64,000 bases of DNA from Gekko japonicus (lineage: Eukaryota): contig NW_015163194.1 of NCBI RefSeq assembly GCF_001447785.1, positions 62,001 through 126,000 of the forward strand, read 5' to 3'. Under the pieces are notes generated by a model. The model saw only the letters and a list, made by a program, of their open reading frames with translations, searched no databases and was not told the origin of the DNA. Shown here one piece after another: positions 23,998 to 59,451 of this stretch (position 1 is its first letter; each line of letters begins with the position of its first letter). The position numbers were made by a program, and so were the translations under genes.

Positions 23998-24045
23998 TCT
24001 CATGGGAAATCCCGAGTTGCACTTTTAATAACGTCCCTCGTGGCA
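23998..24045 (+). promoter_or_regulatory. Putative OR4M-like promoter (O/E + homeodomain + O/E-like sites)
   Basis: TCTCATGGGA (23998-24007) and ACTTTTAATAACGTCCCTCGTGG (24021-24043); GTGAGT donors near 24520-24545. Confidence 0.45.
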
Positions 24046-28771: not shown

Positions 28772-29767
28772 ATGGAGAATGGCAGTCGAGGGACCGAACT
28801 TGTGGTGGCAGAGTCACCTCCCAACCACCCTGAAGGCGTGAGAAACAGCAGCGAAGTGACAGAGTTCATCCTGACAGGACTGTCCCATCAGCGTGGAGTC
28901 CAGCTCTTCCTCTTTGTCCTATTCCTCACTTTCTACCTAATCGTCCTGCCCAGCAATGTCCTAATCATTGTCACCATCCGAGGTGACCCCCATCTCAGCT
29001 CACCCATGTACTTCCTGTTGGCCAACCTTGCTTTCTTGGACATCTGGTACTCCTCTATCACTGCTCCCAAGATGCTGGTTGACTTCTTTGCTGAACGCAA
29101 GCTCATTTCCTTCTGGGGATGCATCGCTCAGCTCTTCTTCCTCCATTTTGTGGGTGCTGCCGAGATGTTCCTGCTCACCGCCATGGCTTATGATCGCTAT
29201 GCCGCCATATGCCGACCCCTGCACTATACGAACATGATGAGCCGTCGTCTGTGTATCGTTCTGGTACTGTTTTCTTGGTTGGGGGGCTTCGTCCACTCCA
29301 CCATCCAAGTCGTGTTGATTGTTCGCCTCCCATTCTGTGGGCCTAATGAGCTGGACAACTACTTCTGTGACATCACCCAAGTGTTGAGGATCACCTGTGC
29401 CAACACTTTTGCTGAGGAGATGGTGATGATCTTTAGCAGTGGCCTCATTTCTGTGGTCTGCTTTGTGGCCCTCTTGGTTTCTTATGCCTTTTTGCTCTCT
29501 GTGCTGAAGAAGAACTCTGGCGAATCAGCCAGCAAGGCTTTGTCCACTTGCTATTCTCACATCACCATTGTCATTTTCATGTTTGGCCCCGCCATCTACA
29601 TCTATGCCCGGCCCTTCGACGAATATGCCCCTGACAAGATAGTCTCTGTCTTCCACACAATCATCTTTCCCCTCCTGAACCCTATTATTTACACTCTCAG
29701 GAACAAGGAGATCACCACTGCCATGAAGAAGGTGGTCCGTAGATGCTTCCTCTGTAAGAAAAAGTGA
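28772..29767 (+). CDS. Olfactory receptor, family 4, OR4M-like (331 aa from first ATG)
   Basis: SPMYFLLANLAFLDIWYSSITAPKML, MAYDRYAAICRPLHY, SSGLISVVCF, STCYSHITIV and FPLLNPIIYTLRN closely match recalled OR4M1. Acceptor ...ttcctttcccatccag ends at 28745; ATG at 28772. Confidence 0.93.
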   Translation: MENGSRGTELVVAESPPNHPEGVRNSSEVTEFILTGLSHQRGVQLFLFVLFLTFYLIVLPSNVLIIVTIRGDPHLSSPMYFLLANLAFLDIWYSSITAPKMLVDFFAERKLISFWGCIAQLFFLHFVGAAEMFLLTAMAYDRYAAICRPLHYTNMMSRRLCIVLVLFSWLGGFVHSTIQVVLIVRLPFCGPNELDNYFCDITQVLRITCANTFAEEMVMIFSSGLISVVCFVALLVSYAFLLSVLKKNSGESASKALSTCYSHITIVIFMFGPAIYIYARPFDEYAPDKIVSVFHTIIFPLLNPIIYTLRNKEITTAMKKVVRRCFLCKKK

Positions 29768-43095: not shown

Positions 43096-43375
43096 GCAGA
43101 AACAGGATGGAGAGTCAGTTTGGTGCTAATAAGGTGCTTGGGGACCAACGGAAGGAATAGCAGGCAAGAGCTCTTTGTGCCTTCAGATATACCTCGTCAC
43201 TCCAGGCTGCTGTCGGGCCCGGAGCAGTCCGGCAATGGTGCTTGGGGAACCTTCTTCTACCTGAAGGACTGCCAGCCATTTGAAGGGAACAAGTGGTGAG
43301 TAGTTCTCTTCTCTCTGTTTCTCCAGTAGGTGCTCTGGGCTGTCTCTCACTTCCTTCCTAGCAGACCCTTCTTAC
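43096..43375 (+). promoter_or_regulatory. Putative OR4N-a promoter and non-coding first exon
   Basis: Non-repeat-looking block alignable to 56520-56810, including the donor GTGAGT at 43296. Confidence 0.55.
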
Positions 43376-51032: not shown

Positions 51033-51968
51033 ATGGAACACGAGAATTACACTGTCGTAAATGAGTTCGTTCTCCGGGCATTAGCATGGAATTGGGAACT
51101 GCAGCTGTTCCTCTCTGCCCTCCTCCTCATATTATATGTCATCATCTTACCTGGGAATATCCTTATCATTGTAACGATTAAGACTGATGTCCACTTAGAG
51201 TCCCCCATGTTTTTCTTCTTGGCCAATCTGGCCATCATGGATATTTGCTATAGCACTGTCACCCCTCCAAACATGATGGCCAACCTCTTCAATGAACAAA
51301 AGACCATCTCCTATCAAGGCTGCATGGCTCAGATGTTTTTCATCCATTTCCTGGGTGGGGCTGAGTTTTTCCTACTCATAGCCATGGCCATTGACCGGTA
51401 TGTGGCCATCTGCCACCCCTTACACTATGCTACCATAGTGACCAAAGTGGTTTGCTGGGTGTTGGTCTTATGTGCATGGGGCGGAGGCTTCATACACTCT
51501 ATGACCCAGATGGTTCTCATCATCCCACTCCCATTCTGTGGTCCGAATGAATTGGACAACTTCTTCTGTGACGTTACCCAGATCATCCGGCTGGCCTGCG
51601 CCAACACCTACTCCTTGGAGTACGCCATGTTTATCAACAGTGGCCTGGTCACCACTGCGTGCTTCATCCTCCTCCTCATCTCCTACGGTGCCCTGCTCAT
51701 CAAGGTGAAGATGGGCTCCGGCCAAGGGAAGAGCAAAGCCGCCTCCACTTGTGTCACCCACATCATCATCGTCTTCATCATGTTCTGTCCGGCCATTTAC
51801 ATTTACTGCCATCCTTTCCGGGACTTCCCCTTCGACAAGTTGGTGGGTTTATTCCACACCGTGGTCTTTCCCTTGATGAATCCCATGATCTACACTTTGA
51901 GGAACAAAGAGGTGAAGGTTGCTATGCTCCGAATGCTCAGGAAATATAAGCCTAAGAGGGACAAGTGA
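51033..51968 (+). CDS. Olfactory receptor, family 4, OR4N-like paralog a (311 aa)
   Basis: NYT sequon, IILPGN, SPMFFFL, MAIDRYVAICHPLHY, STCVTHIII, FHTVVFPLMNPMIYTLRN; acceptor ttagttgcag ends at 51016. Confidence 0.92.
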   Translation: MEHENYTVVNEFVLRALAWNWELQLFLSALLLILYVIILPGNILIIVTIKTDVHLESPMFFFLANLAIMDICYSTVTPPNMMANLFNEQKTISYQGCMAQMFFIHFLGGAEFFLLIAMAIDRYVAICHPLHYATIVTKVVCWVLVLCAWGGGFIHSMTQMVLIIPLPFCGPNELDNFFCDVTQIIRLACANTYSLEYAMFINSGLVTTACFILLLISYGALLIKVKMGSGQGKSKAASTCVTHIIIVFIMFCPAIYIYCHPFRDFPFDKLVGLFHTVVFPLMNPMIYTLRNKEVKVAMLRMLRKYKPKRDK

Positions 51969-52915: not shown

Positions 52916-53241
52916 GCCTGGTCACCACTGCATGCTTCAACCTCCTCCTCATCTCCTATGGTGCCCTGCTCATCAAGGTGAAGGTGGGCTCCGGCCAAGG
53001 GAAGAGCAAAGCGGCCTCCACTTGCATCACCCACATCCTCATCATCTTCGTCATGCTAGGTCCGGCCATTTACATTTACTGTCATCCTTTCCGGGACTTC
53101 CCCTTCGACAAGTTGGTGGGTTTCTTCCACACTGTGGTCTTTCCCTTGATGAATCCAATGATCTACACGCTGAGGAACAAGGAGGTCAAAGTTGCTGTGA
53201 TGAGACTGCTGAACAAGTATAATATCATGAGGGTTAAGTGA
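52916..53241 (+). pseudogene. 5'-truncated OR4N-like pseudogene (TM5 to C-terminus only)
   Basis: In-frame LVTTACFNLLLISY...KAASTCITH...NPMIYTLRNKEVK from 52918 to the stop, nearly identical to the 3' third of the 51033 gene. No TM1-4 sequence upstream. Confidence 0.9.
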
Positions 53242-55512: not shown

Positions 55513-56335
55513 TGTATCACTGACTTCTGGCAGCGAGAGTGAAAAGTACTGAGACTGACTAGTGACTTCAGCTCTCATTCTTTATTTCCAGTGTAGAACA
55601 AGACAAAGTTACCGGCTCGCAGGCCGGTTTATAAAGGCACACACCCCACACCCCAAACACACCCCTACACCAGTGATAGGTTATTTACAGTGGTCAAGAG
55701 TTCCATAGGCTCTCGGCCGGGACCTAGCCCACCGATTGGTGCAAACTAGGATCCGCTTGGCCCATTGTTCCTGGGAGCACATCTTGGTCGCTTTGCATTA
55801 CCGCGTGGAGACCAAGCCTCGCATGCAGTCGGAGATGAATACATTACAGAGAGAAAGCAGGGGGGGGAAGGGGGAGGGAGTGCCGGATAAGGTGGGAATC
55901 CGTGGCTGTCACCAACCAAAAGCCTGGTGGGACATCTCTGCCTTACACGCCCTAACTCCACTTGCCCCAAAGATAGGTCTCAAAACAGGCATGATAAAGA
56001 GAGTCATCCATATTCAATGATTGGTCAACAGATGTATATATTGAGAAAGGTTCTTGACCAAGTACCCTGTCTAATGATTGGATATTCAGTGAAGCACTTA
56101 GTCAGTCCTGTGAACTGCTGCAAGGCTGTATATACTCTTCCACAAGTATTCCGCTACTTCTGACTTTAAACTACCGTCAGGGAAGGGGGAGGGAGTGCCG
56201 GATAAGGTGGAATCCGTGGCTTTCCTCAACCAAAAGCCTGGTGGAACATCTCTGCCTTACACGCCCTAACTCCACTTGCCCCAAAGATAGGTCTCAAAAC
56301 AGGCATGATAAAGAGAGTCATCCATATTGCTCGTT
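55513..56335 (-). mobile_element. Probable solo LTR with internal ~150-bp duplication
   Basis: Minus-strand TATAAA (~55630) and AATAAA (~55582); repeat 55865-56013 / 56179-56328. Boundaries uncertain. Confidence 0.5.
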
Positions 56336-56519
56336 ATCCCCAGAGACCTGGGCATGGCCATTTCGGGCATGGCCAAAAAGTGAAAAGTCCAGTTGCATCT
56401 TTAAGACTAACAAACTTTATTGTAGCATAAGCTTTCAAGAAACACAGCTCTCTTCATCAGATGCACAGCTAACTCCCCTGGATCTACGCCCAAAAAGGAC
56501 TCAGCATATCTTCTGCTTG

Positions 56520-56810
56520 CAGAAATGGTCTGAAACATTAGTTTGGTGCTAACTTTTTAATAAGGTCCTTGGGGACTGACAGAAGGAGCAATGCACCAGG
56601 AGTCTGTGTGTCCTTAGATACACCTGCTCACTCCAGGCTCTCCTAGAGCCAGGAGCAATACAGCTGTGGTGATCTGGAAGCCTTCTTTCTGCCTGAGGCA
56701 CTGCCAGTCACTTGGAAGGAAACAGTGGTGAGTGACTCTCTTCTCCTTTCCTCTCCTCCAACTGATCTTCTGGGCCATCCTTCAACTCTTTGCTAGAAGA
56801 ACCTTCTCAA
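56520..56810 (+). promoter_or_regulatory. Putative OR4N-b promoter and non-coding first exon
   Basis: AACTTTTTAATAA (56551-56563) next to O/E-like TCCTTGGGGA (56566-56575); donor GTGAGT at 56728; block is homologous to 43096-43375. Confidence 0.6.
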
Positions 56811-57099
56811 CGGATCCACTCAGGGCTCTTCCATCCTGCTGGCCAGAGCTTTGCATAAATGTTTGCTCCAGAGTAGTCGAATGGATCTATCAGACTGTCT
56901 ACTAGAATAATTTTTGGGACCTTTCACAAAGATCAGCCTTCCCGAGCAACTCATTTCTGCTCCCTGATGAACCCACAGGTACAGAAAGGCAGAGAACAGT
57001 AGGACACAGAAACCTCTTCTTCTTCTTCTTCTTCTCCTTCTCCTTCTCCTTCTCCTTCTCCTTCTTCTCCTCCTCCTCCTCCGCCCAGTGTTCATGTTC

Positions 57100-58430: not shown

Positions 58431-58515
58431 CTGTTTCTGTATTCCCTCCCTAATATATGTTTCTGTGAATAATATTAACAATAGCAACCCCACTACAGTG
58501 CTATGCATTTTAAGG

Positions 58516-59451
58516 ATGGAACATGGGAATCACACAATGGTGACCGAGTTTCTTCTCCAAGGATTAGCAAAGAATTGGGAGTTACAGCTGTTCCTCTCTG
58601 CCCTCCTGCTCCTCTTCTATGTCATCATTCTACCAGGGAATATCCTTATCATTGTGACAATCCGGACTGACCCCCGCCTAGGGTCCCCCATGTTTTTCTT
58701 CTTGTCCAGTCTGGCCTTGATGGACATCTGCTATAGCACCGTCACCCCTCCAAAGATGATGGCCAACCTCTTCACTCGCCAGAAAACCATCTCCTATCAA
58801 GGCTGCTTGGCTCAAATCTTTTTCATCCACTTCCTAGGTGGGGCTGAGATCTGCCTGCTCATTGCCATGGCTGTTGACCGGTATGTGGCCATTTGCCACC
58901 CACTGCATTATGCCACGATGGTGACCAGAGCCGTTTGCTGGGCGCTAGTAGTAGGCTCTTGGGCCGGAGGCTTCATGCACTCTATGATCCAGATGCTTCT
59001 CATCATCCCGCTCCCCTTTTGCGGTCCGAACGAACTGGACAACTTCTTCTGTGACATCACCCAGATCATCAAGTTGGCCTGCACCAACACCTACGCCTTG
59101 GAGTTTGCCATGTTCATCAATAGCGGCCTGGTCACCACCACGTGCTTTATCATCCTCCTCGTCTCCTACGGGGTCTTGCTGGTCAAAGTGAGGACAGGTT
59201 CGGCCCTGGGGAAGAACAAAGCCGCGTCCACGTGCATCACCCACATCCTCATCGTCTTCATTATGTTTGGCCCGGCCATCTATATCTACTGCCACCCTTT
59301 CCAGGACTTCTCATTTGACAAGGTGGTGGCATTTTTCCACACTGTGGTCTTTCCCTTGATGAACCCCATGATCTACACCTTGAGGAACAAGGAAATCAAA
59401 GCTGCAATGCTCAGACTGCTGAAGAAAAGTAAACCTAGAAGGGACAAGTAA
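58516..59451 (+). CDS. Olfactory receptor, family 4, OR4N-like paralog b (311 aa)
   Basis: Close paralog of 51033-51968 (MEHGNHTMVTEF, MAVDRYVAICHPLHY, NPMIYTLRN); ATG at 58516. Confidence 0.92.
   Translation: MEHGNHTMVTEFLLQGLAKNWELQLFLSALLLLFYVIILPGNILIIVTIRTDPRLGSPMFFFLSSLALMDICYSTVTPPKMMANLFTRQKTISYQGCLAQIFFIHFLGGAEICLLIAMAVDRYVAICHPLHYATMVTRAVCWALVVGSWAGGFMHSMIQMLLIIPLPFCGPNELDNFFCDITQIIKLACTNTYALEFAMFINSGLVTTTCFIILLVSYGVLLVKVRTGSALGKNKAASTCITHILIVFIMFGPAIYIYCHPFQDFSFDKVVAFFHTVVFPLMNPMIYTLRNKEIKAAMLRLLKKSKPRRDK

What the first reader, a model, noticed from the sequence alone, without database searches (positions are those of the whole stretch)
56551..56575. Composite homeodomain + O/E site nearly identical to the mouse H/P-element 13-mer, upstream of a reptile OR
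Seen: AACTTTTTAATAA-GG-TCCTTGGGGA lies ~1.95 kb upstream of the OR4N-b ATG and ~150 bp before a GTGAGT donor. Known: AACTTTTTAATGA is the extended homeodomain (Lhx2/Emx2) motif of the mouse H and P elements, and adjacent Lhx2+Ebf (O/E) sites drive OR gene choice. The match is 12/13. Inference: the mammalian OR-choice cis-code is conserved in this squamate cluster.
Basis: partly seen in the sequence, partly recalled or inferred. Interest (0 to 1): 0.7.

Follow-up and report, generated by a model that had tools for sequence, protein, structure and literature searches.

The report
Mouse-like switch before gecko smell gene
A short DNA motif resembling the control sites of mouse smell-receptor genes sits 2 kb before a gecko smell-receptor gene and is kept in a sister gene and two related species, so it is likely part of that gene's promoter, although protein binding and the start of transcription are untested.

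Summary
The motif is there: 12/13 to the mouse 13-mer at 56551-56563, an O/E-like site at 56566-56575, a GTGAGT donor 153 bp on, and an OR4N-like ATG 1,965 bp on. The 12/13 match alone is unremarkable (17 of 100 shuffles), and its mismatch turns the core TAATGA into TAATAA. With the abutting O/E site it is rare (0 of 150 simulated windows). A sister block before the paralogous OR keeps core, O/E and donor (28/29 motif bases against 103/150 exon bases) but lacks 8 bp, including the AACTTT extension. Two related species keep the 13-mer. A perfect 13-mer plus O/E-like site lies 16 kb on, outside the window. Similar sites precede some other gecko ORs (11 of 13 hits upstream on the same strand; 8 of 10 after merging paralogs), but 0 hits in a held-out 200 kb. 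No RNA or binding data. Spacing may be one base longer than in the mouse composite. Verdict: likely a homeodomain plus O/E promoter element of a known kind, not an H/P-type enhancer. I found no reptile report. The scan noted similar composites on shark receptor promoters.

The parts
56540..56549 (+). Conserved 10-bp block just 5' of the motif; factor unknown
   Evidence: 10/10 identical in the sister block; no difference listed in organisms C, D for 56546-56549, the rest lies near the alignment end
56551..56563 (+). Extended homeodomain-like site, 12/13 to the mouse H/P/P3 13-mer; core TAATAA at 56558-56563
   Evidence: no difference listed in organisms C and D
56566..56575 (+). O/E (Ebf)-like site, one base from the O/E site in the mouse OMP promoter probe; starts 4 nt after TAAT
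   Evidence: G>A at 56572 in organism C, none in D
56576..56727 (+). Inferred promoter-to-first-exon stretch (start site not mapped); 56668-56703 resembles a repeat fragment
   Evidence: 103/150 identical to the sister block; repeat-like piece
56728..56733 (+). Candidate splice donor GTGAGT of a non-coding first exon, 170 bp after the TAAT
   Evidence: 9/9 identical at 56725-56733 in the sister block, where it lies 169 bp after TAAT; no difference listed in the hexamer in C, D
56380..56470 (.). High-copy interspersed repeat fragment upstream of the motif; not part of the element
   Evidence: 58-61 overlapping hits in 1.47 Mb of fetched DNA; over 1,000 contigs per run laid, nearly all here
58496..58498 (+). 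Candidate splice acceptor CAG before the coding exon (alternative AAG ends at 58514)
   Evidence: aligns with a CAG at like distance in the sister gene; inferred
58516..59451 (+). Intact OR4N-like odorant receptor CDS, 311 aa (gene B), the likely target
43117..43144 (+). Sister motif of gene A: same 5' block, TAATAA core (43127) and weaker O/E (43135-43144), lacking 8 bp including the AACTTT extension
43296..43301 (+). Sister candidate donor GTGAGT
51033..51968 (+). Paralogous OR CDS (gene A), 79% identical to B, 7.9 kb after its motif
24019..24043 (+). Third related site in the window (T-run, TAATAA, O/E-like half at the same spacing), about 4.8 kb before the OR at 28772
   Evidence: flanks not significantly homologous to B

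Best explanation
The 25-bp motif lies at the head of a duplicated block that ends in a conserved splice donor before an intact OR4N-like gene, and it is likely the homeodomain (Lhx2/Emx2-type) plus O/E (Ebf) site of that gene's proximal promoter. Shown: the motif, its sister copy, the donor at +169/170, retention in two related species, and related sites before other ORs of the cluster. Inferred: transcription starts between 56576 and 56727; a non-coding first exon splices at 56728 to the coding exon near 58500; a homeodomain protein and an Ebf dimer bind side by side and raise the chance that an olfactory neuron chooses this gene. The TAAT core and O/E half are the kept parts. The 5' T-rich extension is likely a modifier, since the sister promoter lacks it.
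For: Sister block: 28/29 identity in the motif flanks and 9/9 at the donor, against 103/150 between them (Fisher p 0.0007, alignment-dependent). Other species: 1 difference in 66 positions over 56546-56578 against 31 in 334 over 56579-56745 (p 0.019, interval chosen afterwards). A perfect 13-mer with an O/E-like half at the same spacing lies at C3484:134476; 2 of 48 genome-wide pattern hits fall on this 148-kb contig, where a second hit is expected 0.003 times. In 822 kb of other OR clusters, 11 of 13 TTTAATKR plus O/E sites at +4 lie 0.3-8 kb upstream of an OR on the same strand, against 67 of 180 other TTTAATKR sites (p 0.001; 8 of 10 after merging paralogs, p 0.009). Mouse OR promoters need both site types (review PMC12547500 section 3.1). 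Most mouse OR enhancers work in zebrafish neurons (PMC8213717 passage), so shared factors are expected.
Against: The 12/13 match alone occurs in 17 of 100 shuffles. The core TAATAA fails TAATKR (PMC5638857). Held-out 200 kb with 19 OR matches: 0 hits at +4. The raw +4 excess for the short composite (50 against 9-23) was mostly one repeat (21 of 50); after merging it is 19 against 7-18. The strict composite gave 52 hits against 80 reversed, none on the OR contigs listed (lists incomplete). None of the 8 other hits of a trained pattern that were checked over 20 kb had an OR nearby. Five pattern variants and several spacings were tried, and +4 came from the site itself. Organisms C and D are close (about 94% and 90%), so an unchanged 13-mer is expected with probability about 0.35 and 0.23. 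The block is 42-53% GC, not very AT-rich like mouse promoters.
Confidence: 0.6

Rival explanations
1. The block is a real promoter or first exon, but the 13-mer likeness is incidental: only the TAAT and O/E half (or another factor's site) matter, and the T-rich extension is neutral or a recent 8-bp insertion in gene B.
For: The sister promoter lacks the extension. 12/13 matches are common. A repeat family with 2,172 exact 22-mer hits supplies many 12/13 look-alikes without TAAT. Perfect 13-mers occur in a protocadherin cluster.
Against: The extension recurs in the perfect site at C3484:134476, is kept in organisms C and D and is also in the mouse Sfaktiria probe. The indel lies between two TAA triplets, which suits a deletion in gene A (inference). 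The two outgroup OR4N-like genes have AACTTTTTAA 3.4-3.8 kb upstream, but their homology to B is not significant.
Confidence: 0.2
2. The site is a small intergenic enhancer of Greek Island or P-element type that acts on several ORs of the cluster, rather than the promoter of one gene.
For: In mouse the abutting composite is enriched in enhancers and depleted from promoters. Two mutually homologous blocks at C3484:127123 and 134476 carry such sites with only one OR downstream.
Against: The block was duplicated one-to-one with the OR genes and keeps a donor at a fixed distance. It has only two TAAT cores within -250/+200, whereas mouse enhancers hold several conserved ones.
Confidence: 0.12
3. 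The motif is a chance or repeat-derived sequence with no role in olfactory neurons.
For: No expression or binding data. A common repeat carries a 12/13 look-alike followed by a C-run. 56668-56703 is repeat-like.
Against: No blast hit between the motif block and the three repeat copies tested. Flank scores to them are not significant upstream (p 0.5-0.7), and one of three is marginal downstream (p 0.03). The block has 2 matches genome-wide (lower bound). The motif is better kept than its surroundings.
Confidence: 0.08

Closest known systems
Extended homeodomain 13-mer of the mouse H and P elements and P3 promoter (Vassalli 2011, not held; seen through PMC7804114, PMC5638857, PMC8213819 passages)
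   Same: 12 of 13 bases here, 13 of 13 at C3484:134476; lies upstream of a class II OR
   Different: Core is TAATAA, not TAATGA; 14/21 to the 21-mer; a single copy; absent from the sister promoter; no function shown
Lhx2/Ebf composite motif of mouse Greek Islands (Monahan 2017, PMC5608512; J element HD2, PMC7804114)
   Same: Homeodomain core abutting a pyrimidine-purine O/E half in the same order; 15/25 identical to the Sfaktiria probe, which has the same T-rich extension (counted by eye)
   Different: Best O/E register here is 4 nt after TAAT (7.5/8; 6/8 at 3 nt), whereas Sfaktiria reads best at 3 nt (my reading: 7 against 6.5). In mouse the composite is depleted from promoters; here it sits in promoter-like blocks
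Mouse OR proximal promoters with homeodomain and O/E sites (M71, MOR23; review PMC12547500 section 3.1)
   Same: Both site types within about 150 bp of a candidate non-coding first exon, kilobases upstream of the coding exon
   Different: Sites abut; region is not strongly AT-rich; start site unmapped; reptile rather than mammal

Membership tests
H/P extended homeodomain 13-mer | Exact AACTTTTTAATGA | tested here: not met
   12/13 at 56551; met at C3484:134476 outside the window
H/P extended homeodomain 13-mer | Homeodomain core TAATKR (definition in PMC5638857) | tested here: not met
   core reads TAATAA; PMC8213819 counts other TAATNN variants as conserved sites
H/P extended homeodomain 13-mer | Raises OR choice frequency in transgenes | not testable with these tools
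   needs a reporter assay
Lhx2/Ebf composite motif | O/E-like half abutting the homeodomain core | tested here: met
   7 of 8 informative bases; one base from the OMP O/E probe
Lhx2/Ebf composite motif | Stereotyped spacing and matrix score over 10 | tested here: inconclusive
   matrix is a figure and was not visible; site fits +4 best, Sfaktiria +3 best, J HD2 ties as read from a mutagenesis primer
Lhx2/Ebf composite motif | Co-binding by Lhx2 and Ebf in olfactory neurons | not testable with these tools
   no ChIP, ATAC or EMSA data
Greek Island / H / P enhancer | Cluster of several conserved homeodomain sites | tested here: not met
   2 TAAT cores within -250/+200, only 1 shared with the sister block
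Greek Island / H / P enhancer | Intergenic, accessible in most neurons, acts on several genes | not testable with these tools
   one-to-one duplication with genes argues against it
OR proximal promoter | Homeodomain and O/E sites upstream of an intact OR, same strand, before a donor | tested here: met
OR proximal promoter | Mapped start site within a few hundred bases | not testable with these tools
   no olfactory RNA could be identified among the listed runs
OR proximal promoter | Conservation in orthologs | tested here: inconclusive
Interspersed repeat | Many genomic copies covering the motif | tested here: not met
   0 hits over 56540-56659 in 1.47 Mb of fetched DNA; 2 matches genome-wide

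The most novel reading that the evidence does not exclude
In gecko family-4 OR clusters the enhancer-type Lhx2/Ebf composite, with the H/P T-rich extension, is built into individual gene promoters. This would be an ancestral amniote layout from which stand-alone enhancers such as P arose as orphaned promoter copies; the two homologous blocks at C3484:127123 and 134476 would be such orphans. Genes A and B, which differ by an 8-bp loss of the extension, would then be a natural test of how the extension sets choice frequency.
Probability: 0.2. Interest if true: 0.7.

Novelty: new member of a known kind. Interest (0 to 1): 0.4.

Why it matters
OR promoter and enhancer motifs have been mapped almost only in mammals. 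A conserved homeodomain plus O/E site in a gecko gives a predicted start site and first exon for reptile OR genes and suggests that the choice code predates the mammal-reptile split. That is expected rather than surprising, since mouse OR enhancers already work in zebrafish neurons. The sharper value lies in testable pairs: sister promoters with and without the T-rich extension, and a perfect 13-mer composite nearby.

Tried and rejected
RNA: no RNA holder listed. Runs X11 and X12 (3% and 12% read, tissue not on record) had no reads on 56478-56780; uninformative. Organism E (X8) covered only the 36-bp repeat-like piece and organism B (X3) only 56752-56905; no evidence on the motif. Strict genome-wide composite: 52 against 80 reversed, no OR link seen. 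Generic +4 excess: mostly one repeat, reduced to marginal. Held-out replication: 0 hits; it covers 200 kb only, half of what was planned. Trained 18-mer pattern: 11 hits against 3 reversed; 2 are the C3484 sites, 8 checked over 20 kb had no OR, 1 is on an 811-bp piece. C5643 perfect 13-mers turned out to lie in a protocadherin cluster. Origin of the motif from the common tandem-unit repeat: no alignment support. Outgroup OR4N-like sites on C26467 as proof of ancestry: unresolved, neither B nor the repeat is significantly similar. My first reading that the spacing equals Sfaktiria's was withdrawn after rescoring. Vassalli 2011, Plessy 2012 and Nishizumi 2007 are not held. Literature searches for a reptile report found none; subscription journals are mostly missing.

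Full report
Observation. A GTGAGT lies at 56728 and the ATG of an intact 311-aa OR at 58516. The closest named proteins are gecko OR4N2/4N5-like receptors at 88-92% identity. The 13-mer is reported for H, P and the P3 promoter (PMC7804114, passages). The 12/13 match by itself is ordinary: 0.19 expected per window, 17 of 100 shuffles. The mismatch changes the core from TAATGA to TAATAA, which fails the TAATKR definition (PMC5638857, passages). The O/E half differs by one base from the O/E site in the OMP promoter probe (PMC5608512, supplementary file 7). The combination is rare: 0 of 150 simulated windows, about 0.001 analytically, with the criterion set after seeing the site.

Sister promoter. 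A search of the whole genome with 56470-56760 gave 2 matches: the site itself and window 43127-43313 at 74% (a lower bound). That copy lies 7.9 kb before the paralogous OR at 51033 (79% identical). It keeps the 10 bases before the motif (10/10), the core and O/E half (18/19) and the donor (9/9), against 103/150 in between (28/29 against 103/150, p 0.0007). It lacks 8 bp, including the AACTTT extension. The donor lies 170 bp after TAAT in B and 169 bp in A. This is the main reason to read the block as promoter plus non-coding first exon. It also shows that the 13-mer extension is dispensable in one gene.

Other species. Contigs of organisms C (X5) and D (X6) hold the ortholog over 56513-56990 with 28 and 45 other letters. 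Over 56513-56775 the table shows all 14 and 18 listed differences: none in the 13-mer, one purine-for-purine change in the O/E half of C (56572), none in the donor hexamer; 1 and 2 further differences near the ends are not placed. Over 56546-56578 that is 1 of 66 positions against 31 of 334 downstream (p 0.019, interval chosen afterwards). These species are close, so an unchanged 13-mer is not decisive (chance about 0.35 and 0.23). Distant squamates could not be reached.

Related sites. Sixteen kb further along the contig, outside the window, C3484:134476 has the perfect 13-mer and an O/E-like half at the same spacing, 7.4 kb before another OR on the same strand. It is homologous by local alignment to a second block at C3484:127123, with no OR between them. 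Window 24026 has a third such site 4.8 kb before the OR at 28772. A relaxed pattern has 48 genome-wide hits (32 reversed), 2 of them on this contig. In 822 kb of other OR clusters (82 OR matches), 11 of 13 TTTAATKR plus O/E sites at +4 lie 0.3-8 kb upstream of an OR on the same strand, against 67 of 180 other TTTAATKR sites; merging paralogs by hand gives 8 of 10 (p 0.009). In 198 kb of control DNA there was 1 hit. Against this: five pattern variants were tried; +4 came from the site itself; at +3 it is 5 of 9; the short composite's raw excess was 21 of 50 from one repeat and falls to 19 against 7-18 clusters; a held-out 200 kb of distant OR families gave 0 hits. Split afterwards by identity to gene B, 6 of 15 genes at 44% or more carry a site (0 of 15 antisense), against 5 of 45 and 0 of 16 below 44%. 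The motif thus marks a subset of ORs, not the repertoire.

Repeat check. The motif and 56540-56659 had no hits in 1.47 Mb of fetched DNA, whereas 56380-56470 is a high-copy repeat and 56668-56703 is repeat-like. A tandem-unit repeat with 2,172 exact 22-mer hits carries a 12/13 look-alike without TAAT; at most 19 places carry the perfect form in that context. It does not align to the site. It does show that 12/13 is a cheap criterion in this genome.

Spacing. Monahan 2017 (passages and supplementary files 2, 6 and 7; the logo is a figure and file 6 is cut at 400 characters per cell) defines the composite by rigid spacing; a 2-bp insertion impairs binding of their fusion protein. The Sfaktiria probe has the same T-rich extension as the gecko site, but its O/E half reads best 3 nt after TAAT, while the gecko site reads best at 4 nt (7.5 against 6). 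The J HD2 site, read from a mutagenesis primer, ties. Membership in the composite class is therefore open. In mouse the composite is depleted from promoters, which differs from the layout here.

Mechanism. Most likely (0.6) the site is the homeodomain plus O/E element of gene B's proximal promoter. Binding by Lhx2 or Emx2 and an Ebf dimer, a start between 56576 and 56727, splicing from 56728 to an acceptor near 58498 and an effect on choice probability are all inferred from mouse work (review PMC12547500, section 3.1). Rivals: a real promoter with an incidental extension (0.2), a small enhancer (0.12), chance or repeat origin (0.08).

Novelty. Eight literature searches found no report of these motifs in a reptile; most subscription journals are not searched, and three key papers were not held. 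Conservation of the factors is already implied by mouse enhancers working in zebrafish (PMC8213717, passages). Other papers seen as passages only: PMC8213819, PMC11643329 (no supplements held), PMC11166570, PMC13223739, bioRxiv 10.1101/142489. Earlier notes of this scan describe similar composites on shark GPR139-like promoters (unchecked here); none overlapped this DNA. Verdict: a new member of a known kind, interest 0.4.

Noticed in passing
L008:8476-8500 (G000:C3484:134476-134500) and L008:1123 (C3484:127123): Perfect mouse 13-mer plus O/E-like half, and a homologous block 7.4 kb earlier; both have a second O/E-like site about 50 bp upstream and only one OR downstream. Better enhancer candidates than the reported site.
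   Followed up: partly
window 43127 against 56551: 8-bp indel between two TAA triplets removes the extension but keeps the core-to-O/E spacing in the sister promoter.
   Followed up: yes
L018, L039, L066, L078 and genome-wide: A repeat of about 180-200-bp tandem units (2,172 exact 22-mer hits) carries a one-off version of the 13-mer followed by a C-run and purines; up to 19 places match 17 contiguous bases of the mouse 21-mer. It could seed composite-like sites.
   Followed up: partly
G000:C5643:21878, 64401, 74534 (L036, L037): Perfect and near-perfect 13-mers with an O/E-like half at +3 in duplicated blocks of a clustered protocadherin locus, another gene family with stochastic choice (recalled).
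   Followed up: no
G000:C5044 (three sites) and C2868 (three sites): Paralogous upstream blocks with T-run, TAATGA and O/E-like half, 1.5-7.2 kb before ORs on the same strand.
   Followed up: partly
G000:C26467:21838 and 12105 (minus strand): Outgroup OR4N-like genes have the extension but TAAA in place of TAAT, 3.4-3.8 kb upstream; promoter homolog or old repeat copy unresolved.
   Followed up: partly
window 52918-53238: OR fragment (residues 205-311, 74% to gene B) between genes A and B.
   Followed up: no
window 58503: Out-of-frame ATG 13 bases before the OR start; it would lie in the mRNA if the acceptor at 58498 is used.
   Followed up: no
window 55865-56014 and 56180-56328: 150-bp direct repeat (97% identical) about 220 bp upstream of the motif, followed by a strong O/E-like site at 56337.
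   Followed up: no
window 56577-56581 and C3484:134505: TGACAG, a TALE-homeodomain-type word (recalled), follows the O/E half in both sites, but is changed in organism D and absent from the sister copy.
   Followed up: no
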